Shown: positions 15,215 to 30,017 of the stretch, piece after piece
Numbering within the stretch: the stretch's first letter is position 1
Layout of the letters: each line of letters opens with the position of its first letter
Assembly (NCBI GenBank): GCA_963660615.1
Contig: CAVKYE010000002.1
Span: 24,073-88,072, forward strand
Length of the DNA: 64,000 bases
Direction: 5' to 3'
Source of the DNA: Vescimonas coprocola
Lineage (GTDB): Bacteria; Bacillota_I; Bacilli_A; RF39; UBA660
The notes under the pieces: generated by a model
The model's input: only the letters and a program-made list of their open reading frames with translations
What the model was told of the DNA's origin: nothing
Databases searched by the model: none
Position numbers and translations under genes: made by a program

Positions 15215-15763
15215 CTATATAAGCCTAATCTCATCTTCAGAAAAGAAAGGTTTCTTCTTATTAATCTTATCAAAAAATAAAATACCATTTAAATGATCAA
15301 TCTCGTGTTGAAAAGCAACCGCAAGTTCCTCACGTACTCTAAACGAAATCCTATTACCATCAGGGTCAAAACCATTAACAGTAACCCTCGCAAACCTAGG
15401 AACATGGCCTTCAACCTCACGGTTCACACTCAAGCATCCTTCACCAGTTTCCAAAGCAACCATCTCTAAAGAATGACTAACAATCTTCGGATTTATAACA
15501 ACATAATTCTCAAACTTTCCTTCCTCATATTCATAAACAATAACAATAATACGTTTAAGCATTCCAAGTTGTGGAAAAGCAAGGCCCATACCAGGACGAA
15601 GCTTATATTTATCACTCATTTTGGGAATCTGACTATAAGTAAGTTGCTTAATAATTCTATCAATAGTATCTTTATCTTCCTTAGATAAAGGTAAACTAAC
15701 TTCTTTACTAATCTCCCTAAGTACCTTATGCTTCTCATCTAAAATCTTAAGCTCTTTAAACAT
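15215..15763 (-). CDS. def: peptide deformylase
   Basis: The three deformylase motifs are present: GMGLAFPQLG, EGCLS and HEIDHLNG. Confidence 0.95.
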   Translation of the reverse strand: MFKELKILDEKHKVLREISKEVSLPLSKEDKDTIDRIIKQLTYSQIPKMSDKYKLRPGMGLAFPQLGMLKRIIVIVYEYEEGKFENYVVINPKIVSHSLEMVALETGEGCLSVNREVEGHVPRFARVTVNGFDPDGNRISFRVREELAVAFQHEIDHLNGILFFDKINKKKPFFSEDEIRLI

Positions 15764-15911: not shown

Positions 15912-16049
15912 TTAATTATTACTACCAAAAGATCTTGCCCCAATAATAATAACTAATAAAATAAATAAAACAAGAACAATAGCAGCACCATATCCAGTAC
16001 CATAATTAGCACTACCATAAGGCACTCCACATCCATATGCTTGTATATA
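15912..16049 (-). pseudogene. C-terminal part of a split YjcZ-type tiny sporulation membrane protein
   Basis: The minus-strand frame reads YIQAYGCGVPYGSANYGTGYGAAIVLVLFILLVIIIGARSFGSNN*. It has no start codon of its own and begins inside the left junction repeat. The Gly/Tyr-rich stretch followed by a ...VLFILLVIIIG helix matches the YjcZ family pattern. Confidence 0.6.
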
Positions 16050-16064
16050 CCTTAGGCGTAGAAA
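16035..16064. repeat. left junction (attL-like), 30 bp
   Basis: atatgcttgtatataccttaggcgtagaaa is the exact reverse complement of 29962-29991. Palindromic core gtatatac at 16043-16050. Confidence 0.8.
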
Positions 16065-16065
16065 G

Positions 16066-17081
16066 TGAAATCTTATAAAGGGCTTATAATACAGGGCAAA
16101 AATAGAAAATCGAAAAAAATTGTTTGGGCAAAAAATCGCAGTTGTTTCAAATTCTTTTTTTGTTTTGGTTGTAAAAATATCTAAAAGTTCTTTTCTAAGC
16201 TCTTCGTTAGTTGTTATATGATGAATAGCTTGCTTAAAGTGGAACTCACAAAAATATTTTCTATTTTATCAAAGTCATATTTTTATTATAAAACATTGAC
16301 AATTTGTTCCCACGGATTACTACCATATACAGTCTTTACTGTTTTGTTTTTTCAAAGCATTTCTATGCTTTCCAACTTTTTCTACGCCTTCAAAAGCAAT
16401 CATACATTTAGCCATTATATCATTTTCTAAATCTTGGCAGCCTAAAAACTTTTCATCAGCCATTACATAAAGTGTTTTAGGAGTATCTACTGGTTCATAA
16501 ACAGATTTTGGTGCTTTCCATTCGTTAAGCCAATTATAAATCGATTGCCTAGAAATATGGAGTAATTTTCTATCTAAGCATAGCTCTTTTAAAGTACTTA
16601 TTTGTTCACCAGTTTCTCTCCCAGCTTTAGCTTGATCAAGAGAAACTGCTTTATCAATCGCCATACCTTTAACGATAGGATCATAATGGTCATATTTGGG
16701 CAGTCCAAAAACATAATCGATGAAAAATAATTTAGATTTATTTAGTTTGGAAACATAATAATTTCTATTAAATGTTATCTCTCCAAAAGGGGTAACTAAA
16801 GTTCTTCTTACCTTGGATTTATTGATATAGTACTTTGCTTTTCTTTCGTGTGACATTGAGTACGCATTATCAATTTCTTCAAAGGTATCAACTAATACTT
16901 TTAATATCAAATTGCGTGTTTGTTCTTGTATTGTAGATACTAGCGAAAAATATTTGTTTGAGTTATCCACCATCGTAAGTGACTTAATTATTTCGTTGAC
17001 AAAAGCATCAGTAATTGATAAGATGTTTTCTTTCAATCTTTTTTTTAATAAATTTTGACAAAAATGTGGTATACTATTCAT
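16066..17081 (-). pseudogene. ISLre2/UPF0236-family transposase remnant (truncated or frameshifted)
   Basis: The 253-aa ORF 16320-17081 (..TLVTPFGEITFNRNYY.., ..LYVMADEKF..) resembles the N-terminal half of UPF0236/ISLre2 transposases. A further open, Met-less frame (CEFHFKQAIHHITTNEELRKELLDIF...) continues to the element edge. Full-length relatives are about 450 aa. Confidence 0.55.
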
Positions 17082-17215
17082 GGAAAAACCTTCTTTCGTG
17101 TAATTTTTTTGGTGAAAATATTATATCAGGTTTTTCCTTTTTTTGTATTCCGAAACTATTTTACACTATCACAAATGATATAAATTTTGAATATATTAAA
17201 ACTTTTGATAAAATA

Positions 17216-17563
17216 ATGATTGAAAGATTTTATACTAATTCAAAAATTTTATATCCATATATTGAAGACATAATTAATAGATATAATGTCAATATTTTAA
17301 AATTTAATATCGATAATAAGAATGACGTGGATATGTTGTTCGACTTATTAAGATGTGCTGTAACATCAAATTGTTCTGAATTGGATTTTTTATACCAATT
17401 ATATGGAGACATAGAGGATTTAAAAAAGCAAAAATCTGGAGATGAGTATTATATTTTTACCGACTATAAAATAAAATGGAGAATTGCTTTCAAGGAAATG
17501 GACAAAAAGTATAGTGCTTGTGAGATGATTTTAGGAATAAATAATTTGAAGAAAAAAGAGTAG
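17216..17563 (+). CDS. hypothetical protein
   Basis: An internal ATG was chosen because the upstream part of the track ORF overlaps the transposase remnant. No motif recognised and the SD is weak. Confidence 0.35.
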   Translation: MIERFYTNSKILYPYIEDIINRYNVNILKFNIDNKNDVDMLFDLLRCAVTSNCSELDFLYQLYGDIEDLKKQKSGDEYYIFTDYKIKWRIAFKEMDKKYSACEMILGINNLKKKE

Positions 17564-17575
17564 GATGAGGGGGAA

Positions 17576-17827
17576 ATGAATTATATAGATGTTTTGCGTG
17601 AGATTACAAATATTACAATGTGTACGTCGATAACACTTTTAATTATTTTGTTGTATAAAGTATTGTTTTTAGATTATTTAGATAGACACAAAGTATTAAA
17701 TAAGATTATCGATAACCTATTTGCGCTTTTAATTATTTTAGACGTTTTCTCAATGATTTTTATAGTGGCTTTTCCAAATGTGATTTCAGTAGTTAATAGT
17801 TTGTTTGAAAAAATATTTAATTTGTAG
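17576..17827 (+). CDS. hypothetical small membrane protein
   Basis: SD gagggggaa upstream. Two hydrophobic helices (ITMCTSITLLIILLYKVLFL and LFALLIILDVFSMIFIVAF). Confidence 0.4.
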   Translation: MNYIDVLREITNITMCTSITLLIILLYKVLFLDYLDRHKVLNKIIDNLFALLIILDVFSMIFIVAFPNVISVVNSLFEKIFNL

Positions 17828-17974
17828 TCAAAATGAAAAAATATTATTTTATTAGTTTTGCGTAGAATAGGTATGGGATTCTTCCTCCAAAAAATAAGGT
17901 TTATACTTTAAGTCATTGTGATATAAAGCAAAGAATAGTCAAAATTTCCGTGATTATAATGCATTAAAAATGTA

Positions 17975-18003
17975 TTGACAATTAATCAAATCGATGTTAG
18001 TAT
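17975..18003 (+). promoter_or_regulatory. sigma-A type promoter of the cargo operon
   Basis: TTGACA (17975-17980), a 17-nt spacer, then TAGTAT (17998-18003). Confidence 0.5.
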
Positions 18004-18039
18004 ATTTACATTGGTGGAAAATCATCAATGAGGTGAAAT

Positions 18040-18138
18040 ATGATAAATAGTGATGAGAAATTTATGATATGTTTTGATTATATATTATTTAGCGATAATA
18101 ATAAATTTTTACTGACTAAAAAAAATGAGAGCAATTAA
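18040..18138 (+). CDS. candidate 32-codon leader ORF (MINSDEKFMICFDYILFSDNNKFLLTKKNESN)
   Basis: GAGGTG SD 5 nt upstream. The stop codon lies inside the 5' arm of the downstream terminator stem. Confidence 0.3.
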   Translation: MINSDEKFMICFDYILFSDNNKFLLTKKNESN

Positions 18139-18162
18139 CTTTAGGGTTGATTGTCTCTTTTT
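18127..18162 (+). terminator. leader terminator/attenuator upstream of the cargo operon
   Basis: gagaGcaattaact-ttag-gggttgattgtctc forms about 13 bp with one bulge and two G-U pairs. It is followed by TTTTT and lies 19 nt before the operon ATG. Confidence 0.5.
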
Positions 18163-18180
18163 AAAAAATTAGGAGGTTTT

Positions 18181-18762
18181 ATGATTTATTTTATTTGCGG
18201 ACATAGGGGTTGTGGGAAAAGTTATTTAGTAAGTCAACTTAAAGAAACTATCAAGTGTAAAGTTTATGATACAGGTCCTATATTAAGAAACGAGTATAGA
18301 AAATTTAGTTTGAATTCTGATGTGCCATTTGGAGAGTGGGTTGAAATTAATGAGCAAACGTATGGTGAAAATTTTACAAATCAAGTTATTTGCGAAAATA
18401 TGAATTTAAATTTAGATGAAACAAATATCATTATTGGAAATAGATCGATGATTGGAATAAAATATGCTATTGAATATTTTGGTATAGATAATTATAAAAT
18501 ATGTTTTATTGATGGTGATTTTGACTTGTTTAGGTTAAATTATAATAAAAGAGAAAAATCAAATTTAGATGAAGAAGAGTTTGGGAAAATTATAGCATTA
18601 GAAAATAGTATGGGGATAGAAGAAATAGAACGTTTTGTAAAAAGTAATCCAACTATTGGGTTATATTTTTATAAAGAGACTAATGATGACTTAATATTTC
18701 AAACTATTTTGGAAGACATTAACAATACAAAACCAAAGGTAAAAAAAAGGAGTGAATTATAA
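18181..18762 (+). CDS. P-loop kinase, nucleoside-monophosphate-kinase-like
   Basis: Strong AGGAGG SD. Walker A GHRGCGKS at the N-terminus. VYDTGPILRNEY is reminiscent of the adenylate-kinase NMP-binding STGD.LR motif. The track TTG start at 18151 was rejected. Confidence 0.55.
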   Translation: MIYFICGHRGCGKSYLVSQLKETIKCKVYDTGPILRNEYRKFSLNSDVPFGEWVEINEQTYGENFTNQVICENMNLNLDETNIIIGNRSMIGIKYAIEYFGIDNYKICFIDGDFDLFRLNYNKREKSNLDEEEFGKIIALENSMGIEEIERFVKSNPTIGLYFYKETNDDLIFQTILEDINNTKPKVKKRSEL

Positions 18763-19407
18763 ATGATGGATTGGTATGATGTTTATTTAGAACAAATAAA
18801 TAAAAGTGGTGGAGATAAATCTTATATGGCATTTAAGATTTATCACAAGAAAAAATTGTTGAAAATTTTAAGAAAATATAGTGGAAAAGGGAAATTAATA
18901 GAGGCAGGATGTGGAACAGGTATTATAACTTCACAGTTAGCCAATGAAGGCTATGATGTGACTGGTGTAGATATAAATAAAAAAATATTGAAATTATGTA
19001 AAAAATTAGAAAAAGAATATTTTGGTACTAATAAGGCTAAATATGTTGAAAAATCAATATTTAATTTGGACTTTCCCAAAAAAAGTTTTGATTTATGTTT
19101 TAGTTGTGGTGTTTTGGAGCATTTTGAAGACAATGAAATAATTAATTCAATAAAACAGCAAATAATGATAGCAAATAAGGTAATTATTGTTATACCCACA
19201 AAATGGTTTGATGATGAAGAGGCATTACACGGGGATGATAGATTTTTAAAACTTTCATATTGGAGAAAATTAATTAAAACAAGTGGTGGAAAAATAATAA
19301 AAGAATATTCATACCCTTTTAAGCAAAAATATTATCAAAAAATAAAAAATATTAGAAAAATATTCAGGCCTAAAGCATATAGAGTTTTTGTTGTAGAAGA
19401 AGGTTAG
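18763..19407 (+). CDS. class I SAM-dependent methyltransferase
   Basis: Motif I LIEAGCGTGIIT, then the acidic loop DVTGVDIN and motif FDLCFSCGVLEHF. The start abuts the upstream stop. Confidence 0.85.
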   Translation: MMDWYDVYLEQINKSGGDKSYMAFKIYHKKKLLKILRKYSGKGKLIEAGCGTGIITSQLANEGYDVTGVDINKKILKLCKKLEKEYFGTNKAKYVEKSIFNLDFPKKSFDLCFSCGVLEHFEDNEIINSIKQQIMIANKVIIVIPTKWFDDEEALHGDDRFLKLSYWRKLIKTSGGKIIKEYSYPFKQKYYQKIKNIRKIFRPKAYRVFVVEEG

Positions 19408-19411
19408 TAAG

Positions 19412-21118
19412 ATGGAAAAAAAGTTTCCAATAATAAAAGCAGGACATATATTTAACCCCTATAAAATAGAAGGTGTAGCAGAATTAAAATTAGATTCTAT
19501 AGTATTAAATTACCCTTGTAGATTAGATGCAATGGCTATAAACCCAGCAGCAGTTGTATATAACTCTGATATGGTATTTACCCCAGGCGAAGTAGTTGTT
19601 TCATTAAATAAATACATAAAAGTAACAATAAAGGTTTTATCTGAAAAAGGTGGGAAAATAATAATTTCAGAGAAAACAAAAAGAAAAGTATTAGTCAAAC
19701 ATTCTTATTTATTGATGTGTTCCGCATTAAATGTCTTTCCTTCTCTGGAAATAGATGTAGATGATAATAATATTCCTAAACATCGTGGATTTGGCTCTAG
19801 TAGTTCTACAATTAGTGCGGTAGCCGCAGCAATAAATGAATTATATGGTTGTCCTATAAAAAATGGCGATTTAATTAAATATTTGGCTTCTAATCACGGA
19901 GAAGAAATAAGTGATGATGATGAAGAAAATTTAAAAGTTGTTCAATGCATTGGAGGGGGTGCTACTAACGGTTTAACAAAGGAAGGAATAATTATTATAG
20001 CCGGTAAATCTACGACTATAGGAAAGTTAGAATATAGCGGTGATGTTTTAATTGGAGTGCCTAAAGATTTTGTGCAGAAAGATGCTAAAGTATTGATGGA
20101 ATTGGAAGAACAAAATCTATGGAAATTTAAAAAAACAGGTGAAGATTATGCTGAAAATATTGCCTATAATTTATTACATAAGGCTTTACCTGGGTTGGCT
20201 AACGGAGATATAAAAGAGTTGGCGGATGTAGTATATGAATATAGATTCAATATGGGAAGTAATGAAAATTGTTCTTTTGTTTATGATGGATTAGTTGAAT
20301 TAGGAAATAATTTAAGATGCTTATACGAGAATAAAGATTGTGAATTTTTAGCGCTATCTTCTGTTGGCCCTGCTTTCTTTGTTATAGTTAATAATGAAAG
20401 ACAAAAACAAAAATGTAAAAATAAAATGGAAGAATTAGCGATGAATGTAATAGAATCGTCAATATGTAATACTACATATCTAATAGAAGAAAAAGAAGAT
20501 AAAAAAATATATTGGCAAGAACAAACAACAAATATTGCGTTTTCGAATAAAGAGCCTTCTAAATATATTACAGATGTTTTAGAAAAAATTGATTTAAAAA
20601 ATAAAAATTGTATAGATATTGGTTGTGGTGGAGGAAGATATACAAAGTATCTTCAAAAAAGAGAAGCCAATGTTTTGGCAATAGATAAGTACCCAGAAAT
20701 GATAGGAAATGTTTATTCACAAAAAATAAATTTTATTAATTGTGATATGAATAATATTCCTGTAAAAGATGATTCATATGATTTAGTACTATCAATTGGT
20801 GTTATACATAATGCGATAACAGTAGATGAGTTTTATAAATCAATAGACGAGATATATAGGATTGCTAATGAGAGCGGTAACGTTGTTTTGTCCTTATTTA
20901 CAAATGATATAATTACAGATGATCTAATAGAATATGGACCAAATTTATATAAAATTAAAAATAGACCACCAATGGTATTATTTTCAAAAGAACAAATAAC
21001 AAAAATATTAAAAGAAAAAAATTTGCATATAGTAAAAGTTATAGATGAACATATAACAGATGTTGGCGGTGGTAAAAGAAATGTTTATACATTATTATTG
21101 GAAAAAAAAGTTATATAA
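19412..21118 (+). CDS. fusion protein: GHMP-kinase-superfamily (beta-RFAP-synthase-like) domain + class I SAM methyltransferase domain
   Basis: The N-terminal ~360 aa carry YPCRLDAMAINPAA and the phosphate-loop-like IPKHRGFGSSSSTISAVAAAINELYG. The C-terminal ~190 aa carry motif I CIDIGCGGGRYTKYL and YDLVLSIGVIHN. Confidence 0.6.
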   Translation: MEKKFPIIKAGHIFNPYKIEGVAELKLDSIVLNYPCRLDAMAINPAAVVYNSDMVFTPGEVVVSLNKYIKVTIKVLSEKGGKIIISEKTKRKVLVKHSYLLMCSALNVFPSLEIDVDDNNIPKHRGFGSSSSTISAVAAAINELYGCPIKNGDLIKYLASNHGEEISDDDEENLKVVQCIGGGATNGLTKEGIIIIAGKSTTIGKLEYSGDVLIGVPKDFVQKDAKVLMELEEQNLWKFKKTGEDYAENIAYNLLHKALPGLANGDIKELADVVYEYRFNMGSNENCSFVYDGLVELGNNLRCLYENKDCEFLALSSVGPAFFVIVNNERQKQKCKNKMEELAMNVIESSICNTTYLIEEKEDKKIYWQEQTTNIAFSNKEPSKYITDVLEKIDLKNKNCIDIGCGGGRYTKYLQKREANVLAIDKYPEMIGNVYSQKINFINCDMNNIPVKDDSYDLVLSIGVIHNAITVDEFYKSIDEIYRIANESGNVVLSLFTNDIITDDLIEYGPNLYKIKNRPPMVLFSKEQITKILKEKNLHIVKVIDEHITDVGGGKRNVYTLLLEKKVI

Positions 21119-22181
21119 ATTATCTAACAGAGATTATTTATGTGATTATTCAAAAATTGAGTCAAAAACAATAGATATGACATTATCAGGAAGATATTTA
21201 TCATCATACCCAAACGTTCAAATATCTATTTCAGAATTTGATAAATATCCTCTATTGACCAACATTAGGGAGTTAGAAGAATTAATTAAGACAAAAACAT
21301 CGACAAACGATGAGATAATAATTGGCAGTGGAGCAAATGGATTATTACAGAATATAATTAAAATATTTTTTAGAAATAGAGGTAATTTAATAACATCATT
21401 TTATTCGTTTGATCAAGCGGAGTATGCAGTAACTTCATTTGATGGAGTAACAAAAAGAGTATATACAAACAATTACAGTTTAGATTTAAACAATGTTATA
21501 AAGGCGATTGATAAGAAATCAAAAATGATTTATATTTGTAATCCGAATAACCCAACAGGAAAATTTATTAATTCAAAAGACTTAATAGAGTTAACAAAAA
21601 AAACAAAAATACCGTTAGTAGTGGATGAATCTGGAATAGAATTTACAGGTAAGAAAGGAATTTTAGAATCAGTACAAAAATTACCTGAAAATTTATTGGT
21701 ATTAAGATCATTTTCTAAAGCATACGGATTAGCAAATTTAAGAATAGGTTATTTAGTTTGTTCAAGGGCATTTAAACAAATTTATCTTAAAAACATAACA
21801 ACTAATGAATATTCTGGGATTTCCTGTTTAATAGCAAAAAATATATTAAATTCATCCGAAAAATATATGGAACAGAATGTTAATCAAATAATAGAAGAAA
21901 AAGTAAAAATGGTAAATCAATTAGAAAAGATGGGTATATATACTGTAGAAAGTTATTCTAATACTATTTTCACCAAAACAATTTTTGATAATAAATTTAT
22001 GAAAGAGTTAGAAAAGAATGATATATCGGTTGTACCCATTTATGATAGAAATAATAATTTACATATTCGTATTGCAATTCAAGATAAAGAAACTAATTCA
22101 GTATTTGTAAAAAAAATGAATGAAATAATGAAAAATAAGAAACTGGTGTTAGGAAAAGAAGAAGATAGAGGTGATATTTAA
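21081..22181 (+). CDS. class I/II PLP-dependent aminotransferase, histidinol-phosphate aminotransferase (HisC)-like
   Basis: ICNPNNPTGKFI, LVVDESGIEF and the Schiff-base lysine motif LRSFSKAYGLANLRIGY. The start is uncertain (21060 or 21081; 21081 follows GGTGGT). Either start overlaps the upstream gene. Confidence 0.85.
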   Translation: MFIHYYWKKKLYKLSNRDYLCDYSKIESKTIDMTLSGRYLSSYPNVQISISEFDKYPLLTNIRELEELIKTKTSTNDEIIIGSGANGLLQNIIKIFFRNRGNLITSFYSFDQAEYAVTSFDGVTKRVYTNNYSLDLNNVIKAIDKKSKMIYICNPNNPTGKFINSKDLIELTKKTKIPLVVDESGIEFTGKKGILESVQKLPENLLVLRSFSKAYGLANLRIGYLVCSRAFKQIYLKNITTNEYSGISCLIAKNILNSSEKYMEQNVNQIIEEKVKMVNQLEKMGIYTVESYSNTIFTKTIFDNKFMKELEKNDISVVPIYDRNNNLHIRIAIQDKETNSVFVKKMNEIMKNKKLVLGKEEDRGDI

Positions 22182-23338
22182 TGAAAATATCTTTAGCAAC
22201 TAATTTTGATGATGAATTAATTGATGGGATAAAAAATTATCCTGTATATGAAATATATGGTAAATTAAAAAATGATTTCATCGGTGGTGGAAGACCGGAT
22301 AATGATTTAATAGATGTCCAAAAGGAAAGATTTGAAAGACATATAAAAAAGACTAGAGAAGCTGGAATTAAATTTAATTATTTATTAAATGGTAGTTGTT
22401 TGTCAAACAATGAGCAAGATATTGGTTGGCAGAAAAATTTCAAAGATTTTTTAGATTATTTAAAATCAGTTGGAGTAAATGCTTTGACAGTAACTAATCC
22501 ATATATATTACAATTTATAAAAAAATACTTTAAAAATGATTTTACTGTTAGAATTTCTACTTTTGCTTGTATTGACTCTTTTGAAAAAGCAAAGTATTGG
22601 GAACAAATGGGAGCAGATTATATTTGCGTTGATTTTGTTAAAATAAACCGTGATTTTAAAACTTTAAAATATATGGTTGAAAATTTGAAAAAATCAAAAA
22701 TAGAAATTTTAGTTACAAATAGTTGTTTGAAAAATTGTCCTATGATTTATACGCACACTAATGGACTAGCCCACGCTTCTATGAAAGACAATAAAACAAG
22801 TGCTTACGAAGATTGGAGTTTATTTTATTGTCAAAAAAAAGAATTAGAAAATTTAGAAGAATATATAAAATCTCCCTGGGTAAGGCCTGAAGATATAAAA
22901 TATTATGAAGAAATAGGAATAGAGCATTTTAAGATTACAGAAAGAGATTTTCCTACATCAGAATTAATAAAAAGAGTAAAGGCTTATACCGAAAGAAAAT
23001 ACAATGGAAATTTATTAGATCTTATACAAGGTCACGGTTGTCTAGCAAAAAGTAATCTGACGTTAGTAAAAAATGAAGTTTCAACAAGAAAAGAAATATA
23101 TGACGAAATAAAGAGAGTAAGAGGATTAGGAAAAGTTAGAGAATGTGAAAGACACATATTTATTGATAATACCAAATTAGATAATTTTATTAAATTTTTT
23201 CTAGAAAATAAATGCACAAATCAATGCGATAAATGTAATTACTGTAAAAAAATATCTAATAGTGTAATCACAAAAAATGAGGATATATGTGAATATTTAA
23301 AATATTTATATAATAAATATGATGATATTAAAATGTAA
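22181..23338 (+). CDS. U32-peptidase-family-like TIM-barrel protein with Cys clusters (possible Fe-S enzyme)
   Basis: ISLATNFDDELID..YGKL..FIGGGRP, FNYLLNGSC and EILVTNSCLKNCP resemble a U32 subfamily. The C-terminal end carries CTNQCDKCNYC (CX3CX2CX2C). TAATG overlap with the upstream gene. Family call is tentative. Confidence 0.5.
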   Translation: MKISLATNFDDELIDGIKNYPVYEIYGKLKNDFIGGGRPDNDLIDVQKERFERHIKKTREAGIKFNYLLNGSCLSNNEQDIGWQKNFKDFLDYLKSVGVNALTVTNPYILQFIKKYFKNDFTVRISTFACIDSFEKAKYWEQMGADYICVDFVKINRDFKTLKYMVENLKKSKIEILVTNSCLKNCPMIYTHTNGLAHASMKDNKTSAYEDWSLFYCQKKELENLEEYIKSPWVRPEDIKYYEEIGIEHFKITERDFPTSELIKRVKAYTERKYNGNLLDLIQGHGCLAKSNLTLVKNEVSTRKEIYDEIKRVRGLGKVRECERHIFIDNTKLDNFIKFFLENKCTNQCDKCNYCKKISNSVITKNEDICEYLKYLYNKYDDIKM

Positions 23339-23484
23339 TTTTTTATGGATAAAATAATAGCATTGATATACTAAATATCATCGTCGAGGATTAACCGGAT
23401 TCGACGAAATAAATGTATACAGTAAAGAAATAAAAGTCTTACGTATATACATAAGATTATGATAAAAATAGGAGGAATTAAAAA

Positions 23485-24072
23485 ATGAAAAAACTAATTT
23501 ATTTAACCACAAATCCTCATAAGGTTGAGGAAGCAAATGAATTTTTTGGAAAAAAGTATGGATTTAACATAGAGATAGTGAATCCTGATTTTGAAATATT
23601 GGAGATACAAGCCGAAAAATGTTCGGAAGTAGCAGCATTTAGCGCTAAATATGCTGCTGATAAATTAGGATGTGCTGTCTTAAAATCTGATTCAGGACTT
23701 TATATAGATGCATTAGGAGGATTACCAGGACCATACAATCATTATTTTGATAAACAGATTGGTGTAGAAAAATTTTTAGAGTTATTTAAAGACGAAACAA
23801 ATAGAAAGGCAAGATTAGAACATTGTTTTGCCTATTGTGAGCCAGGCGAAGATCCAATTGTATTTAGTGGTGGAGGCACTGGAACTATTGCTTATAAGGC
23901 TGAAGGCCAAAGAGGAAGATGGCACGATAAATTTTATATACCCGATGGAGAAGAACAGACATTGAGTGTATTAAGGGATATTGATTATGAAAAAGAAGCA
24001 TCATATTGGGGAGATGCTAAAGATCAATTTGCTAAATGGTATTCTGAAAAATACAAAGATGAATTAAAATAA
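23485..24072 (+). CDS. HAM1/ITPA-type non-canonical NTP pyrophosphatase
   Basis: TTNPHKVEEANEFF (TxNxxKxxE), KSDSGLYIDALGGLPGPY, and RWHDKFYIPDGEEQTLS, which aligns with the ITPA-type GWDPCFQPDGYEQT. Confidence 0.85.
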   Translation: MKKLIYLTTNPHKVEEANEFFGKKYGFNIEIVNPDFEILEIQAEKCSEVAAFSAKYAADKLGCAVLKSDSGLYIDALGGLPGPYNHYFDKQIGVEKFLELFKDETNRKARLEHCFAYCEPGEDPIVFSGGGTGTIAYKAEGQRGRWHDKFYIPDGEEQTLSVLRDIDYEKEASYWGDAKDQFAKWYSEKYKDELK

Positions 24073-24258
24073 TTAAATAAAAAATGTGTAAAAGAAATTC
24101 AAAAATACACGTTTTTTCGAATTCAAATTGTATCAATGAAGACTATAAAATAAGTTGTTCTTTTATACAACAAAATGTGCTAAAAGTTTAATTACTTTAT
24201 TTTCTATCTAATTCGTAAGTTTTGGAGACTGAAAAAATGGCGGAAAGGAATGTTGATT

Positions 24259-24789
24259 ATGGAAAATTTGATTTTAGATGAAGCAGGCTATGCTGCATAT
24301 TTGGAAGATATACATAAACAAGAAGAAAGATTAGCAAAACTAAGAAAATTTAAAGGGGAAGTTGCAATTTATGAAGGAGACGCTTGGCACGATAATTTTA
24401 CTTTTGAACAGACCGAGGCTGAAGAGAGAATGTTAATGGCTGATATTGCAAACAGATATGAAAAACTATCAAAGGCTACGGTTGTGGAGTCTAGCGCCGG
24501 TTTAGGAATTGGTATAAATGACTTGGTTAATATTACTATCACGATCGGAACAAGAGTGAAGGAAATGCATATTTTGATTGTATCATATAAAGATCAAAAT
24601 GAAGATACCGTCGTGTCCGAAATACCTATAAAACAAGTTACTTTGGATAGTCCGTTAGGCAGAGCATTATACCAAAAAGAAGAAGGAGAAGATTTTTCAT
24701 ATAGTGTTGGTGAAAAAAGGATTGAAGGTAAAATTATTTCCGTTGATAAATTTGAACCATTATCTGAAGAAAAAGTAAAAAGGATATGA
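24259..24789 (+). CDS. GreA/GreB-family-like protein (paralog 1)
   Basis: N-terminal coiled coil with GDAWHDNFTFEQTEAEER in place of the Gre GDLSENAEY tip. C-terminal domain with VTLDSPLGRALYQKEEGEDFSY. Second ATG chosen for SD spacing. Confidence 0.7.
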   Translation: MENLILDEAGYAAYLEDIHKQEERLAKLRKFKGEVAIYEGDAWHDNFTFEQTEAEERMLMADIANRYEKLSKATVVESSAGLGIGINDLVNITITIGTRVKEMHILIVSYKDQNEDTVVSEIPIKQVTLDSPLGRALYQKEEGEDFSYSVGEKRIEGKIISVDKFEPLSEEKVKRI

Positions 24790-24879
24790 TACTTGCAATA
24801 AAAATAATGAAATATGTTGTTTATGATTACAATTCTACTAAATAGTATTTCGATTTGCAAATGAATAAATCGAAAATAA

Positions 24880-24923
24880 AAGAATGATATAAATTTAGTG
24901 ATTATTGTTATCATTCTTTTTTT
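24880..24923 (+). terminator. intrinsic terminator
   Basis: 10-bp stem aagaatgata / tatcattctt followed by TTTTT. Confidence 0.7.
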
Positions 24924-25063
24924 GTTTTAGATTTATAAAAATTAAGAAATGTATTGAAACGAAAAAAATGTTAATTTGATTTATTTTAAATTATTTACTT
25001 ATCTGATATATAATAGTATAATCTGATAAAGGATAATTTTATAAGGTTGAATGGAGAATCAGT

Positions 25064-25537
25064 ATGGATAAAATATATATGACAAAAGAAGGTTATGACA
25101 AAAAAATAAAAGAATTTGAAGAAACAAAAAGATTATTAAAAGAAACATCAAAAAATAAAATAGAAGCAGCCTATGATGGCTCTGGTGATACTTGGCACGA
25201 TAATTTTACTTATGAACAGTTAGATTTACAAGAAACAGGACTCCTATCGCGATTGGAAAGTATGCAGGAATTATTAAGTAATGTGGAAATTGTTGAAAAA
25301 AAATCATTAGAGAATAATGTTGTTAATTTAGGAGATCGAATTGCAATTGAGATATACTATGAAGATGGTGAATGTGAAGCATTGGATGTGATTCTTGACG
25401 AGTCGACAGAAGATGAAAATGCTGTGACTTTGAGTTCTCCATTAGGAAAAGTTCTTTATATGTCAAAAATTGGAGATAAACGTACATATTTAGTTAACGG
25501 TAGCACAAATACTGTTATTATAAAAGATAAGTTATAA
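25064..25537 (+). CDS. GreA/GreB-family-like protein (paralog 2)
   Basis: GDTWHDNFTYEQLDLQE tip motif. C-terminal VTLSSPLGKVLYMSKIGDKRTY. Confidence 0.7.
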   Translation: MDKIYMTKEGYDKKIKEFEETKRLLKETSKNKIEAAYDGSGDTWHDNFTYEQLDLQETGLLSRLESMQELLSNVEIVEKKSLENNVVNLGDRIAIEIYYEDGECEALDVILDESTEDENAVTLSSPLGKVLYMSKIGDKRTYLVNGSTNTVIIKDKL

Positions 25538-25707
25538 TATGCGTAATGAAAGAAAATTATAATTAATACACATACTTATTTTATAATATGCTAATAAAAA
25601 AGATTTAAGTGCTATATTATAAACTCTTAAATTTTTAAAATTACTAGAATATCGTATGTAAAAACATCATGTGAAATATATGGCAGTATTTGATATTTAT
25701 ATTTAAA

Positions 25708-25739
25708 CAAAAAAACTATGACTTAACGATAGTTTTTTT
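25708..25739 (+). terminator. intrinsic terminator
   Basis: aaaaaaactat / atagttttttt stem with a 9-nt loop. Confidence 0.6.
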
Positions 25740-25955
25740 CGTTCAAGCAACAAAACACTACTTTCAAGCATAAAATAGTCACAATTTTAAAAATTTAATT
25801 ATAATAGCCCTCCTAGTGAGGTTTGTTATATGGCGGATTCTTTTTCATTTGAAAAAGAATATAGAGGGGAACAAGTAAATATTTTTTATAAAAGAGGCAA
25901 TTTGTCTATTTTTAGATACTTTGTCTCTTTTTTTGTATTCGTTTTTATCAGAGGA

Positions 25956-25991
25956 CCTCCTTTTAACGATTTTAAATTCGTTAGAAGGAGG
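25956..25991 (+). promoter_or_regulatory. 14-bp hairpin that sequesters the Shine-Dalgarno of the sigma-like gene and is followed by a T run
   Basis: CCTCCTTTTAACGA-ttttaaat-TCGTTAGAAGGAGG (one G-U pair), then TTTTGTT. The 3' arm contains GGAGG. Confidence 0.55.
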
Positions 25992-26000
25992 TTTTGTTAT

Positions 26001-26612
26001 ATAGAAAGGCCAAAAAGAAGAAAAGATAAATATAATCCTTATGTTATTTCTATAGAGGATAATATATACAAAGTTTCTTTTAAAGATGTTAAAGGCAAAA
26101 TACAAATAGTCATAATAACAAGAGAAATTTTTGATTTATTGAATACTTTTGAATTAGAAGATTTATCTATAATGAATGAATATGATAATCACATTGAACA
26201 TAGTGAGTTAATGGAACATAATTTATATGTTAGAGCAAAAGAAAAGCCATTGAGTATAGAAAATGAAGTAATGAAGAAAATATCTTTTGAAATTTTGAAA
26301 GAAGCAATATCTATGTTGCCTGATATACAAAGACGTCGAATTAAAAAATATTATTTTGAGGATAAGACTGAGCAACAAATAGCCGATGAAGAGGGAACAA
26401 CCCATCAAGCAGTACATACTATATTAGAAAGAGCAAAAAATAATTTAAAAGAAATTTTAAAAAATTTAATTAAGTGTTTGCAATTTAGCGTTTTAGTTAG
26501 GAAACAAGTGAAAGGGTATTTATTATTCTTTCTCCTGTTTCCTTTTTGTTTTGGTAATAGGATGTTGTTCTTTGAAACCTTAATACGCATTCATCAAATA
26601 CATTCCTATTAA
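26001..26612 (+). CDS. sigma-70 region-4 / HTH regulator typical of clostridial serine-recombinase elements
   Basis: ERPKRRKDKYNPYVISIEDNIYKVSFKD... and LPDIQRRRIKKYYFEDKTEQQIADEEGTTHQAVHTILERAKNNLKEIL (region 4.2-like HTH). There is no in-frame ATG/GTG/TTG near the SD. The first plausible codon is ATA at 26001 and the next ATG is at MNEYDNH. Confidence 0.55.
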   Translation: MERPKRRKDKYNPYVISIEDNIYKVSFKDVKGKIQIVIITREIFDLLNTFELEDLSIMNEYDNHIEHSELMEHNLYVRAKEKPLSIENEVMKKISFEILKEAISMLPDIQRRRIKKYYFEDKTEQQIADEEGTTHQAVHTILERAKNNLKEILKNLIKCLQFSVLVRKQVKGYLLFFLLFPFCFGNRMLFFETLIRIHQIHSY

Positions 26613-26658
26613 AAATAGCACGTTAGTAAGTGCGCTTGCGATAAACACTTGACTATAA

Positions 26659-26677
26659 AATTAGGTAGCACCTAATT
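26659..26677. promoter_or_regulatory. palindromic operator-like site AATTAGGT-AGC-ACCTAATT
   Basis: Perfect 8-bp arms overlapping a TTGACT hexamer upstream of mazF. Confidence 0.45.
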
Positions 26678-26680
26678 TGC

Positions 26681-26706
26681 AAAGACATTTAATAAAGACA
26701 TTTAAT
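26681..26706 (+). repeat. tandem 13-bp direct repeat (aaagacatttaat x2)
   Basis: Two exact adjacent copies, read directly. Confidence 0.6.
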
Positions 26707-26792
26707 AGAATTAAAGATACTCCTGTCTCGCCATAATCTCAAATAATGGAGGCAGCCTAGAGAGAACCTCTAGAAGGTGTAATTCTTGTGAT

Positions 26793-26811
26793 ATTGAATT
26801 AGCAATTCAAT
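26793..26811. promoter_or_regulatory. palindromic operator-like site ATTGAATT-AGC-AATTCAAT
   Basis: Perfect 8-bp arms with the same AGC spacer as the site at 26659. Confidence 0.45.
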
Positions 26812-26907
26812 AGTTTGATGAATCCCATATTGTGGGGCTAGAGGATAAATAACAATAAGAAATAATAAAAGGGATATATTCCCTAATTACATATTAAGGA
26901 GGAAAAA

Positions 26908-27264
26908 ATGAACACATTAAAAGGAAGCATATATTATGCGGATTTAGATCCTGTTATAGGAAGCGAACAAGGAGGAATACGTCCAGTTGTTATTCTGCAA
27001 AATAGTATTCAAAACTATTATAGTGAAACAACGGTAGTTGCACCTATCACTACAAAAGTTAAAACCGGAGGCTTTCACGTCTTTTTAAAAGCGGATAAAA
27101 CATTAAAGAATGATTCAGTAATATTGTTAGAACAGATACGAACTATTGATAAATCGCGTCTACTAACTTATATAGGTAAACTTTCACAAGAACATTACAG
27201 AAAAGTGAATAACGCCTTAAAGAAAATGTTCTATTTAGATTGGGAAGTACACAATGTAAAATAA
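26908..27264 (+). CDS. MazF/PemK-family endoribonuclease toxin
   Basis: GSIYYADLDPVIGSEQGGIRPVVILQN...VVAPIT...DSVILLEQIRTIDKSRL. Strong AAGGAGG SD. Confidence 0.9.
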   Translation: MNTLKGSIYYADLDPVIGSEQGGIRPVVILQNSIQNYYSETTVVAPITTKVKTGGFHVFLKADKTLKNDSVILLEQIRTIDKSRLLTYIGKLSQEHYRKVNNALKKMFYLDWEVHNVK

Positions 27265-27472
27265 TTTGTTGCACCAATTATGTGATGATATAAGTTAAAA
27301 TAATTAATTATGTAGGTATCAAAGGAATTAAGAACTAATACTATATTTTAGCCACCACTAAAACAACGTGGCAAATAATAAAAAGCATTTTACTATGTTT
27401 TTTATTTTGTCGTAAATAGAAGAAAAAAAGAATAATATTTAATAGAAAATTATCATATGAAAGGAGCATGGG

Positions 27473-27673
27473 ATGAAAACATATAAAGTAAAAGTGAAGT
27501 TGCAGACAAATATTGATGTATCTGCTACAAGTAAAGAAGAATCAATCGAAAAAGTAAAAAAATTAATAAAGGACTGCGTTAACGAAAAAACATTTGAAGC
27601 CCTAAAAAGCCTATTGATAGAATGCAGTGAAATAAAATATACTTCAAAACTTATAAAAAAAGAACATCGTTAA
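27473..27673 (+). CDS. hypothetical 66-aa K/E-rich protein
   Basis: AAAGGAG SD. No family recognised. Confidence 0.45.
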   Translation: MKTYKVKVKLQTNIDVSATSKEESIEKVKKLIKDCVNEKTFEALKSLLIECSEIKYTSKLIKKEHR

Positions 27674-27696
27674 CAAAAAGTATAGGGGGTAAAAAG

Positions 27697-27795
27697 ATGT
27701 ATGAAATTATAAATGTTTTTTCAAGCACAGATGAACTAAAACAAGAAAATTTTAATAAAGTATTAGCAGAATTAATTTTCAAACTAGAAAATAAC
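27697..27795 (+). CDS. candidate 32-aa ORF (MYEIINVFSSTDELKQENFNKVLAELIFQTRK)
   Basis: GGGGGT SD-like sequence 6 nt upstream. Located immediately upstream of the recombinase gene. Not in the ORF track because it is too short. Confidence 0.3.
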
Positions 27796-27881
27796 ACCAC
27801 CACACATTTGAATCTTGAATAATCTCATAATATGATTATTTCGTATTATAAGCCATTAACGAAAGGTAGAGTGATAATACT

Positions 27882-29951
27882 ATGTTTGAACAAAAAGTTT
27901 TTATAAGAAATGGAGATGAAAGAGTAGGTGGTTATGTAAGAATTTCTCAAAAAGACCGTACAAAACTAACACCAAACCAATTAAGTGCTAGTATTGAAAA
28001 TCAAATCACAATGTTAAAAGACTATTGTGATAACAATAAATGGAATTTAGTTAATATATATTGTGACGAAGATATATCTGGTGCCGACCAAACAAGGCCT
28101 GAGTTTAATAAGCTTATTAAGGATTGTGAAAGTGGTAAAATAAATGTTGTTTTATGCAAAGCACAGGATAGATTTGCGAGAGATATGGAAATGATTGAAA
28201 AATATGTTCACAACAAATTTATTGAGTGGGGAGTTAGATTTATAACAATTGTAGACCACGCAGATAATGCTGTTATGGAAAATAAAAAGAACCGTCAAAT
28301 AACAGGGCTTACAAATGAATGGTTACTAGAAGATATGTCAAATAATATAAGAACCACATTAAACTCAAAAAGAAAAAATGGTGACTTTGTAAGTTCTTTC
28401 GCCCCTTACGGGTATAAAAAAATAAGAGATTCAAGGAAGAAAATACATTTAGTTATAGACCCTGTCGCTGCTGAAGTAGTTAAAAAAATATTTAATGACT
28501 TTAACAGTGGCAATTCTATCAGGTCTATTGCAAGAGATTTAAATGAACGATGTATTTTAAGTCCTTCAGAATACAAAAAGAAAAATGGAGAAAACATACA
28601 TATTCCTACAAAAATAATTAACTCAAACAAGTTCGAAAATTCATCAGCATATATCTTAAAATATAATTACTTTAGTGATAATTTAAAAATTAACACTAAA
28701 GTTCATTTGTTTTGCAAAGTAGATGTTTCGTCACCAGAATTAGTCAAAAATATTGAACTTAAAGTATTTGGTGGCAATCAAAGTAAAATTTATTATACAA
28801 AATATGATTTTAATACTGATAACATTTTGGAAGCAAAAAAACAATATAAAAAATGGATAAAATTAGAAGACTCAAATGAGATACCATCAAACGTAAAGTA
28901 CATAAGAGTTGATTTTAATGTAAACAAACTTTATGAAGAATTAAGTATTGAATTTGAATTAAAAATAAACAAAAATATTAATAGAGATTATGTGAGCATC
29001 TCTCATATTTCTTATATAAAAAATGAATTGATGGAGAAACATTTCCAATTAAATGCAAGATACAAAAGCAAATGGAAAAAGGAAAAGGTGAGAGAAATAA
29101 TCAAAGACCTTGTTTACATTGGCACATTAGCCCAGGGTAAAAGAACTACCATAAGTTATAAAAATAAAAAGGTAGTAAACATACCTAAGAGTCAATGGAT
29201 AATAGTACCTAATGTTCACGAACCAATAGTAAGTAAAAAGACTTATTTGAAAGCACAAGAGCAACTAAACAGTCTTAGTAAGTCAGTATCAACTCCAGAA
29301 GTCAATATGTTTTCAGGTATCTTAAAATGTGGATATTGTGGTCGGAATTTTAGAGCAACAAAATGTGGCCGTGCTGGTGATAAAAATCAAGTATCATATT
29401 TTATATGTGCTGATAGAAGTGAAAAGTTTATTAATTGCAAGAATAGAACGCAATTAAGACAAGACACTTTAAAAGAGTTAACACTAAACGAAATTAACAA
29501 GATAATCAAAAACTTGAAAGAGGATTCCACACTTTCGAAATTTTACCAAGATAACGTTGAACATCATAGTGGAATAGATGATAAATACAACGCATTAGTA
29601 TTAGAAAATGAAAGACTTATTAAAGAAAAAGAAAAAAAAAACCATTACTCGAAAGGACTTTATGAAAATAAAATAAATGGATTCATTGATGAAGAAGAAT
29701 TTGTTACATATAAACAGTCATATAAAGATGAAATAAAAAAAATAGAAGAAAGACAATTAAAAATTATAGAAGAACAAGAAGCCTTGAAACTCAAAAAAGA
29801 GGATATTAAAAATATTAAAGAAATAGTAAAGAAGTATGATACATTAACAGAACTTAATTATGATGTCATTCACGAACTTATTAGTGAAATAACTATTGGC
29901 GTTAAAGAAGAGGGCAAACCAAGAAAAATTTCATTTAAATGGAATTTTTAA
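27882..29951 (+). CDS. large serine recombinase
   Basis: Resolvase catalytic domain (GGYVRISQKD with the Ser at residue 22). Recombinase domain (FAPYGYKK, LVIDPVAAEVVKKIF, VYIGTLAQGK). Zinc ribbon (CGYCGRNF...C...C). Long K/E coiled coil and C-terminal tail. The stop is 25 bp from the right junction core. Confidence 0.92.
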   Translation: MFEQKVFIRNGDERVGGYVRISQKDRTKLTPNQLSASIENQITMLKDYCDNNKWNLVNIYCDEDISGADQTRPEFNKLIKDCESGKINVVLCKAQDRFARDMEMIEKYVHNKFIEWGVRFITIVDHADNAVMENKKNRQITGLTNEWLLEDMSNNIRTTLNSKRKNGDFVSSFAPYGYKKIRDSRKKIHLVIDPVAAEVVKKIFNDFNSGNSIRSIARDLNERCILSPSEYKKKNGENIHIPTKIINSNKFENSSAYILKYNYFSDNLKINTKVHLFCKVDVSSPELVKNIELKVFGGNQSKIYYTKYDFNTDNILEAKKQYKKWIKLEDSNEIPSNVKYIRVDFNVNKLYEELSIEFELKINKNINRDYVSISHISYIKNELMEKHFQLNARYKSKWKKEKVREIIKDLVYIGTLAQGKRTTISYKNKKVVNIPKSQWIIVPNVHEPIVSKKTYLKAQEQLNSLSKSVSTPEVNMFSGILKCGYCGRNFRATKCGRAGDKNQVSYFICADRSEKFINCKNRTQLRQDTLKELTLNEINKIIKNLKEDSTLSKFYQDNVEHHSGIDDKYNALVLENERLIKEKEKKNHYSKGLYENKINGFIDEEEFVTYKQSYKDEIKKIEERQLKIIEEQEALKLKKEDIKNIKEIVKKYDTLTELNYDVIHELISEITIGVKEEGKPRKISFKWNF

Positions 29952-29961
29952 AAAAACTTTT

Positions 29962-29991
29962 TTTCTACGCCTAAGGTATATACAAGCATAT
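29962..29991. repeat. right junction (attR-like), 30 bp
   Basis: tttctacgcctaaggtatatacaagcatat is the exact reverse complement of 16035-16064. Core gtatatac at 29976-29983. Confidence 0.8.
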
Positions 29992-30017
29992 CCTTGATAT
30001 CCGCCATAATAATACAT
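29976..30017 (-). pseudogene. N-terminal part of the split YjcZ-type gene
   Basis: The minus strand reads aggaggaataatt-ATG then MYYYGGYQGYACIY, running into the junction core. As integrated it reads on into the element (..LRRRKKVFLKIPFK*). Confidence 0.55.

What the first reader, a model, noticed from the sequence alone, without database searches (positions are those of the whole stretch)
16035..29991. Both inferred att sites are perfect palindromes centred on a palindromic TA, so attL and attR are identical 30-mers in inverted orientation
Seen: 16035-16064 (atatgctt-gtatatac-cttaggcgtagaaa) is the exact reverse complement of 29962-29991. Joining the host arms gives a perfect 24-bp palindrome, atatgcttGTATATACaagcatat. 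Joining the element arms gives a perfect 36-bp palindrome, tttctacgcctaagGTATATACcttaggcgtagaaa. Both share one symmetry centre, the TA in the middle of the 8-bp core. Established: large serine recombinases cut around a central dinucleotide, and its asymmetry fixes the polarity of recombination. A palindromic dinucleotide removes that polarity. Inference: attL x attR could give inversion as well as excision, unless the asymmetric outer arms or an accessory factor impose direction. Symmetry beyond these 30 bp breaks down (ggcactccacatcc versus ggcggatatcaagg on the host side).
Basis: partly seen in the sequence, partly recalled or inferred. Interest (0 to 1): 0.6.

Follow-up and report, generated by a model that had tools for sequence, protein, structure and literature searches.

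The report
Serine-recombinase island with palindromic attP
The two identical 30-base inverted repeats are real, but they are the two arms of the mobile element's own attachment site, not half host and half element.

Summary
16035-16064 is the exact reverse complement of 29962-29991, and about 4e-8 such pairs are expected by chance.

It frameshifts the split host gene, and its "24-bp palindromic attB" is built entirely from element DNA.

The host/element switch lies in the direct repeat CATAT (16034-38 and 29987-91). Joining there restores a 50-aa protein, MYYYGGYQGYGCG…, that matches 7 of 7 same-genus orthologues.

A 51%-identical recombinase sits in the same gene in another species (L018). 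It has an unambiguous 8-bp core, TATCCTTG, and the centre of its attP symmetry is the homologous TA. Nine relatives share the junction [variable arm]-TA-nCCTTG.

So attP is a perfect 56-bp palindrome centred on T|A (16036-37 and 29989-90), and attB is asymmetric.

The predicted effect is on the orientation of integration, not on inversion at excision, because attL×attR is known to prefer parallel alignment.

All 9 independent elements lie in one orientation. This counts against a fully non-polar site and is unexplained.

The element is a new member of a known kind, with one unusual and testable feature.

The parts
16034..16038 (.). attL core CATAT (direct repeat shared with attR). The attP symmetry axis T|A is at 16036-16037.
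16037..16064 (.). P' arm of attP: the right half of the perfect 56-bp palindrome. Weaker symmetry continues to about 16079.
29962..29989 (.). P arm of attP: the left half of the perfect 56-bp palindrome. It begins 10 bp after the recombinase stop codon.
29987..29991 (.). attR core CATAT. The symmetry axis T|A is at 29989-29990.
16043..16050 (.). GTATATAC, an internal palindrome inside the P' arm (its twin is at 29976-29983).
27882..29951 (+). Large serine recombinase, 689 aa (Resolvase + Recombinase + Zn_ribbon_recom, with a weak DUF4368 match). It reads outward towards attR.
27697..27822 (+). 41-aa ORF immediately upstream of the recombinase. Its position and motif are conserved in relatives, so it is a candidate accessory or directionality factor (inference).
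26908..27264 (+). MazF/PemK-family toxin. It is part of a backbone module also seen in relative L020.
25830..26612 (+). Protein with a sigma-70 region 4 domain. This backbone module is also present in L020.
18151..25537 (+). Cargo genes: P-loop protein, methyltransferase, GHMP-like/methyltransferase fusion, class I/II aminotransferase, U32-like protein, Ham1/ITPase, and two Gre-like factors.
16320..17081 (-). Truncated UPF0236 transposase fragment (matches positions 9-203 of a 400-position profile).
15912..16038 (-). 3' part of the split YjcZ-like gene (…GCGVPYGSANYGTGYGAAIVLVLFILLVIIIGARSFGSNN*).
29989..30017 (-). 5' part of the split gene (MYYYGGYQG-Y…). The crossover lies in the Tyr10 codon.
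15215..15763 (-). Host peptide deformylase, the left syntenic anchor, also present in L018.
30154..31326 (+). Host FtsW/RodA/SpoVE-family gene, the right syntenic anchor in 6 of 7 relatives that have a flank.

Best explanation
A 13,953-bp genomic island was integrated by its own large serine recombinase (LSR, 27882-29951) into the Tyr10 codon of a 50-aa YjcZ-like membrane-protein gene that lies between def and ftsW/spoVE. The two identical 30-mers are the P and P' arms of the element's attachment site plus the shared core. After excision they would join into an attP that is a perfect 56-bp palindrome, tttctacgcctaaggtatatacaagcaT|Atgcttgtatataccttaggcgtagaaa. The empty host site, ggcactccacatccaTAtccttgatatccgcc, is asymmetric. 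Recombinase dimers would bind the symmetric arms, make 2-nt staggered cuts at the dinucleotide on the symmetry axis (TA, inside the 5-bp attL/attR identity CATAT), rotate and religate. What is shown here: the repeat, the recombinase domains, the restored reading frame, the conserved junction in relatives, and the attP symmetry. What is inferred: the exact cleavage position, that the element is still active, and the role of the conserved 41-aa ORF as a directionality factor. TA is self-complementary and attP carries no asymmetry within 56 bp, so the site alone cannot fix the orientation of integration. Excision should still work normally, because attL x attR alignment is set by pairing of P-type and B-type half-sites.
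For: (1) Pfam finds Resolvase 1e-21, Recombinase 5e-19 and Zn_ribbon_recom 6e-10 in the 689-aa ORF. R20 and S22 are invariant in the clade alignment. (2) Joining at CATAT restores MYYYGGYQGYGCGVPYGSANYGTGYGAAIVLVLFILLVIIIGARSFGSNN. All 7 same-genus orthologues from uninterrupted loci begin MYYYGGYQGYGC (6 of 7 continue with G), with DNA CAAGGnTAyGGnTGy. (3) L018 carries an LSR 51% identical to this one, with the same def / target gene / ftsW synteny and different cargo. Its attL and attR share an unambiguous 8-bp direct repeat, TATCCTTG. Its restored ORF is in frame, and the best attP symmetry axis falls between GTAGTT and ATCCTT, which is the homologous T|A. The window core (CATAT) and the L018 core (TATCCTTG) overlap only in TAT. 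(4) In 9 relatives the element-specific arm ends, and conserved host sequence begins, at the same TA. (5) attP is a perfect 28+28 palindrome and attB is not symmetric. (6) The literature assigns LSR crossovers the same way, to the dinucleotide at the middle of the attP inverted repeat within the shared core (PMC5595907). (7) The element's GC skew is +0.23 to +0.30 against -0.1 to -0.4 in both flanks, which marks it as foreign DNA.
Against: There is no direct observation of an empty site from the same species, of a circular joint, or of cleavage. The distance from the TAAGG motif to the TA is 12 nt in the window but 11 nt in L018, L019 and L020, so the half-site register is not perfectly conserved. 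All 9 independently acquired relatives have the recombinase end next to the 5' half of the gene. Their independence follows from LSRs that are 84-97% identical in hosts whose FtsW is only 46-61% identical. If orientation were random, P would be about 0.004. This is not expected for a non-polar TA crossover, unless selection for co-orientation with neighbouring genes filters insertions. About 35 of 37 large host ORFs up to 52 kb run on the + strand, as the cargo does. I found no report of a natural LSR with a self-complementary core.
Confidence: 0.85

Rival explanations
1. Model B: the same LSR island, but the exchange happens at the asymmetric CC immediately outside the 30-mers (16033-34 and 29992-93). 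attP would be 30 + CC + 30, and attB would be …CACAT-CC-TTGAT….
For: This join also restores an open 48-aa frame. It gives a symmetric attP and a non-palindromic dinucleotide, which would explain the uniform orientation. CC lies inside the L018 core TATCCTTG.
Against: The restored protein would lack the YG found in 7 of 7 same-genus orthologues and in L018. The element ends (ATAT) would have to recreate the orthologous host sequence at both junctions by coincidence. In L018, CC is 3 nt off the attP symmetry axis (spacers of 8 and 2 nt). The TAAGG-to-centre distance would be 15 nt against 11 nt in relatives.
Confidence: 0.07
2. Model A, the first reader's model: exchange at the TA in the centre of GTATATAC, with atatgctt/aagcatat as host arms, so that attB is a 24-bp perfect palindrome and attP a 36-bp perfect palindrome.
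For: The shared GTATATAC is the longest sequence that reads the same in both 30-mers in direct orientation.
Against: It gives a frameshifted 43-aa product with no YjcZ-like tail. No orthologue contains the 24-bp palindrome or anything like it. A metagenome pattern that allowed this junction length found nothing. Relatives' arms have no internal palindrome, yet they insert at the same host TA.
Confidence: 0.01
3. The 30-mers are terminal inverted repeats of a DDE-type transposon flanked by a 5-bp target-site duplication, CATAT. The serine recombinase would be cargo.
For: Perfect terminal repeats next to a short direct repeat are the classical transposon signature. A UPF0236 transposase fragment lies near the left end.
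Against: The only transposase is a truncated fragment (253 aa, covering profile positions 9-203 of 400). The LSR is the one gene conserved at the same terminus in all relatives, whose cargo is otherwise unrelated. In L018 the inverted arms are not terminal on both sides (0 and 5 nt from the repeat), which fits a site centred on TA but not repeats plus a duplication. Insertion into the same codon in at least 9 hosts indicates site-specific recombination.
Confidence: 0.02
4. Functional variant, not exclusive of the best explanation: the island is a skin/gin/SPβ-like intervening element. It would be excised in the mother cell during sporulation to rebuild the YjcZ-like gene, rather than being simply a horizontally mobile island.
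For: The host encodes Spo0A (139.8 bits, above the cut-off). An orthologue of the target matches TIGR01732, the YjcZ sporulation-protein family, at 20.8 bits against a cut-off of 21.35. In L051 the same gene lies next to ylbD/ylbE coat genes. LSR-borne elements that split sporulation genes are well documented (PMC5595907, PMC4191935, PMC5025042).
Against: The window's own restored protein has no family hit at E<=0.01. There are no expression data. No sporulation promoter or directionality factor has been identified. Near-identical LSRs in very different hosts show active horizontal spread.
Confidence: 0.35

Closest known systems
gin element / GirC in gerE of Bacillus cereus ATCC 10987 (PMC5595907). 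More broadly skin (SpoIVCA, CD1231) and SPβ (SprA).
   Same: A non-phage island carries a large serine recombinase at one end and splits a small gene in a spore-former. There is a short attL/attR identity (9 bp in gin, 5 bp here) inside an inverted repeat, and joining within it rebuilds the reading frame.
   Different: The gin inverted repeat is a 27-bp imperfect one, and its predicted crossover is an asymmetric AA. Here the arms are 28 bp and perfect, and the axis falls on a self-complementary TA. The target is a YjcZ-like tiny membrane protein, which I did not find reported as a target. Developmental excision is not shown here.
Phage serine integrases Bxb1, phiC31 and A118/LI (PMC3783163, PMC3556126)
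   Same: The domain architecture is the same. attP is about 50 bp and symmetric about a central dinucleotide. attB is weakly symmetric. Strand exchange is conservative, with a 2-nt stagger.
   Different: Their central dinucleotides are asymmetric (GT, TT, GG) and are the sole polarity determinant. Their attP sites are only pseudo-palindromic. This element's attP carries no asymmetry over 56 bp.
TnpX/TndX transposons Tn4451 and Tn5397 (from my own knowledge, plus the DUF4368 domain)
   Same: A large serine recombinase with a C-terminal extension related to DUF4368 sits at the end of a non-phage element with inverted ends, and excision gives a circle.
   Different: Those elements exchange at GA and use relaxed targets. 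The DUF4368 match here is below threshold (22.2 bits against 25), and the target is a single conserved codon.
Small serine resolvases (Tn3/γδ res site I; from my own knowledge)
   Same: They cut at a self-complementary central AT inside a palindromic TTATAA.
   Different: Polarity there comes from accessory sites and synapse topology. No accessory sites are evident here, and the enzyme is of the large type.

Membership tests
Large serine recombinase / serine integrase system | Resolvase catalytic domain with the nucleophilic serine, plus Recombinase and zinc-ribbon domains | tested here: met
   One search finds all three domains above their cut-offs. R20 and S22 are invariant in the clade alignment.
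Large serine recombinase / serine integrase system | attP of about 50 bp built of inverted half-sites around a central dinucleotide | tested here: met
   One search shows a perfect 28+28 palindrome. One search shows the same geometry in L018.
Large serine recombinase / serine integrase system | A short identity shared by attL and attR that contains the crossover, with precise restoration of the target | tested here: met
   The core is CATAT, and a 50-aa ORF matching the orthologues is restored.
Large serine recombinase / serine integrase system | An asymmetric central dinucleotide that sets polarity | tested here: not met
   The symmetry axis falls on TA. Three of the four dinucleotides inside CATAT are self-complementary. 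The cleavage position itself has not been measured.
Large serine recombinase / serine integrase system | A recombination directionality factor for excision | tested here: inconclusive
   A conserved 36-41-aa ORF lies directly upstream of the LSR in the window, L018, L020, L022, L024 and L027. Its function is not tested.
Sporulation-gene intervening elements (skin, SPβ, gin) | The interrupted gene is a sporulation gene of a spore-former | tested here: inconclusive
   Spo0A is present. An orthologue scores 20.8 bits against TIGR01732 (cut-off 21.35), and the window's own protein has no hit.
Sporulation-gene intervening elements (skin, SPβ, gin) | Excision in the mother cell during sporulation | not testable with these tools
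TnpX/TndX-type serine transposons | DUF4368 C-terminal domain and GA crossover dinucleotides at the ends | tested here: not met
   DUF4368 scores 22.2 bits, below the cut-off of 25. The ends carry TA, not GA.
DDE transposon with terminal inverted repeats and target-site duplication | An intact cognate transposase, and inverted repeats that are terminal at both ends | tested here: not met
   Only a truncated UPF0236 fragment is present. In L018 the arms sit 0 and 5 nt from the direct repeat.

The most novel reading that the evidence does not exclude
This recombinase clade exchanges strands at a self-complementary TA, and in the window's element attP has no asymmetry at all over 56 bp. Yet all 9 independently acquired elements are integrated in the same orientation. 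If selection does not explain this, polarity must come from something other than the central dinucleotide, for example the strongly asymmetric attB or an accessory protein. That would contradict the Bxb1/phiC31 rule that the central dinucleotide alone sets orientation.
Probability: 0.2. Interest if true: 0.75.

Novelty: new member of a known kind. Interest (0 to 1): 0.42.

Why it matters
It corrects the att-site map of this element, so anyone testing it would otherwise synthesise the wrong attB and attP. It defines a family of serine-recombinase islands that all target one codon of a tiny YjcZ-like gene in small-genome gut Bacilli and that swap cargo freely. It also offers a natural, easily testable case of a large serine recombinase whose attP is a perfect palindrome centred on a self-complementary dinucleotide. 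That arrangement is avoided in engineered systems because it permits insertion in both orientations. If the enzyme still integrates directionally, a second polarity determinant exists. If it does not, this is a natural bidirectional integrase.

Tried and rejected
2. Model B (exchange at CC) was considered seriously. It is disfavoured by the conserved YG and by the L018 geometry.
3. Exact look-up of the three restored proteins among 15 billion sequences found none.
4. A metagenome scan for an empty site that allowed all three junction lengths gave 0 hits.
5. Scans for the terminus in metagenome and viral contigs gave 0 hits. Across 401 genomes of the order, allowing up to 3 mismatches, only the window's own genome matched.
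No read-level test for excision, circles or the inverted isoform was therefore possible.
7. None of the other 64 same-genus genomes carries this recombinase.
8. I looked for the left ends of L019, L021, L022 and L024.
9. More distant family members target other genes (collagen-like GXY repeats, an ABC-ATPase motif). The combined symmetry and frame analysis gave mixed centres: CG in L042, AC in L048, AC or GC in L050. The register of their homologous P arms was inconsistent, so I do not lean on them.
10. Literature searches for natural large serine recombinases with palindromic cores found nothing.


Full report
**Observation**

The 30-mer at 16035-16064 is the exact reverse complement of 29962-29991. 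In a 29% G+C window, about 4e-8 such pairs are expected by chance. It is the strongest inverted repeat in the region and extends to 45-nt arms at 84%. It occurs nowhere else in the 1.26-Mb genome.

**What the segment is**

The 689-aa ORF at 27882-29951 ends 10 bp before the right 30-mer. It is a large serine recombinase (LSR) with Resolvase, Recombinase and Zn_ribbon_recom domains and a sub-threshold DUF4368 match. The segment between the repeats carries:
- a MazF/PemK toxin;
- a protein with a sigma-70 region 4 domain;
- two Gre-like factors;
- Ham1;
- a U32-like protein;
- an aminotransferase;
- a GHMP-like/methyltransferase fusion;
- a second methyltransferase;
- a P-loop protein;
- a truncated UPF0236 transposase.

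It has no phage structural genes and no conjugation genes. Its GC skew (+0.23 to +0.30) is opposite in sign to both flanks.

The flanks hold the two halves of a small minus-strand gene. The 5' half starts at 30017 (MYYYGGYQGY…). The 3' half ends at 15912 (…GAAIVLVLFILLVIIIGARSFGSNN). The gene lies between peptide deformylase and an FtsW/SpoVE-family gene.

**Where the exchange happens**

I tested three junction models.
It gives a frameshifted 43-aa product.
- **Model B (CC just outside the 30-mers).** It gives an open 48-aa frame.
- **Model C (exchange inside the direct repeat CATAT, 16034-38 and 29987-91).** It gives a 50-aa protein, MYYYGGYQGYGCGVPYG….

Uninterrupted orthologous loci exist in same-genus genomes. 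All seven begin MYYYGGYQGYGC, and six of the seven continue with G. Their DNA reads CAAGGnTAyGGnTGy. This is exactly Model C, whereas Model B lacks the YG.

**Evidence from an independent element**

The nearest recombinase relatives are about 50% identical. One of them (L018) has the same def / target gene / ftsW synteny, a 7,036-bp element and unrelated cargo (AMP-binding enzyme, hybrid histidine kinase). Its attL and attR share an unambiguous 8-bp direct repeat, TATCCTTG. Joining there restores MYYYGGYQGYGGYPYSG… in frame. The best symmetry axis of its attP lies between GTAGTT and ATCCTT. That T|A is the position homologous to the axis of the window's palindrome.

The two cores, CATAT and TATCCTTG, overlap only in TAT. 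If the two enzymes cut at the homologous position, the crossover dinucleotide is therefore TA (on the axis) or AT. Both are self-complementary.

Across nine relatives the junction reads [element-specific arm]-TA-nCCTTGrTAwCCrCC…ATACAT. The arm varies and the host side is conserved from the TA onward.

**Resulting anatomy**

- The element is 13,953 bp.
- attP is a perfect 56-bp palindrome (28+28) centred on T|A (16036-37 and 29989-90), with weaker symmetry further out.
- attB (…ggcactccacatccaTAtccttgatatccgcc…) is essentially asymmetric.
- About 26-28 bases of each 30-mer are element DNA. Only the outer ATAT is shared with the host.
- The crossover lies in the Tyr10 codon.

This is the same reasoning used in the literature for GirC/gin. 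There the cleavage site is placed at the dinucleotide in the middle of the attP inverted repeat, within the shared core (PMC5595907).

**Mechanism and the polarity question**

Published work on LSRs bears on this in three ways.
- attP x attB can synapse, cleave and rotate equally well in parallel or antiparallel alignment. Only the asymmetric central dinucleotide makes one product ligatable (PMC3783163).
The expected consequence, however, is random orientation of integration, not inversion at excision.

Against even that, all nine elements have the recombinase end next to the gene's 5' half. They represent independent acquisitions. The L018-group recombinases are 84-97% identical to each other, while their hosts' FtsW proteins are only 46-61% identical. 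The window and L019 show the reverse pattern (LSR 44%, FtsW 68%). If orientation were random, P would be about 0.004.

One non-mechanistic explanation is selection for co-orientation with neighbouring genes. About 35 of 37 large host ORFs up to 52 kb are on the + strand, as the cargo is. I cannot decide between selection and an unknown polarity determinant, so this stays unexplained.

A second small inconsistency concerns spacing. The conserved TAAGG motif is 12 nt from the TA in the window but 11 nt in L018, L019 and L020.

**Context**

- The host encodes Spo0A.
- An orthologue of the target is a near-threshold match to the YjcZ sporulation-protein family (20.8 bits against a cut-off of 21.35).
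- In L051 the same gene lies next to ylbD/ylbE coat genes.

A skin/gin-like developmental excision is therefore plausible but not shown. A 36-41-aa ORF with a shared motif lies directly upstream of the recombinase in six elements, so it is a candidate directionality factor.

The wider recombinase clade occurs in 24 of 401 sampled genomes of the family, across 23 genera. There it targets other genes, including collagen-like GXY repeat genes and an ABC-ATPase motif. A combined symmetry and frame analysis of three two-ended examples gave CG, AC, and AC or GC as centres. The arm register was inconsistent, so I treat this only as a hint that self-complementary centres may recur.

**Limits**

- No empty allele from the same species, no circular joint and no inverted isoform was found.
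- The cleavage position is inferred, not measured.
- I found no report of a natural LSR with a self-complementary core, but the search was limited.

**Verdict**

The att-site partition is wrong, but the idea of a palindromic crossover is partly rescued at corrected coordinates. The element is a new member of the known class of LSR-borne gene-splitting islands. Its unusual and testable feature is a perfectly palindromic attP centred on TA.

Noticed in passing
window 27697-27822; L018 9807-9917; L020 7862-7987; L022 2303-2413: A 36-41-aa ORF lies directly upstream of the recombinase. Its position and motif (I-x3-F … N-x-[IV]-[LY]-x2-L-I-[FY]-K) are conserved across elements with unrelated cargo, which makes it a candidate directionality or accessory factor.
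   Followed up: partly
window 16001-28000 compared with the flanks: The element's GC skew on the + strand is +0.23 to +0.30. Both host flanks are -0.1 to -0.4, although the genes run the same way. The host + strand is C-rich despite carrying most of the genes.
   Followed up: partly
L018, L021, L022, L024, L027: These recombinases are 84-97% identical to each other, yet they sit in hosts whose adjacent FtsW proteins are only 46-61% identical, and each element carries different cargo. This points to recent horizontal spread of one integration module with cargo turnover.
   Followed up: partly
L020 end of contig; L053 end of contig: Two assembly contigs stop at, or 3 nt after, the inferred crossover TA. 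An assembly break there is what a mixed population of occupied and empty sites would produce, but it could equally be a palindrome artefact.
   Followed up: no
L031-L050 (family genomes G323, G184, G490, G530 and others): More distant members of the recombinase clade (24 of 401 sampled family genomes) are inserted in collagen-like GXY repeat genes, in both gene orientations, and at the conserved PT(S/G)ALD motif of ABC ATPases. In L042 the frame-restoring junction falls on a self-complementary CG.
   Followed up: partly
G000:C1, about 134161-134337 (L054): An intact 58-aa paralogue of the target gene (MYYYGGYGNSCGC…AAIVLVLFILLVIIIGSRMTA) is present in the same genome. It contains CCATATCC but lacks the CTTGATATCC half-site, and it is unoccupied.
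   Followed up: partly
window 25830-27264; L020 6355-7793: A sigma-70 region 4 protein and a MazF/PemK toxin form a conserved backbone module next to the recombinase, both in the window's element and in its closest relative (53% identical LSR).
   Followed up: no
L051 2509-3098: In one host the same target gene lies next to ylbD/ylbE spore-coat genes instead of ftsW. This supports a sporulation context for the target.
   Followed up: no
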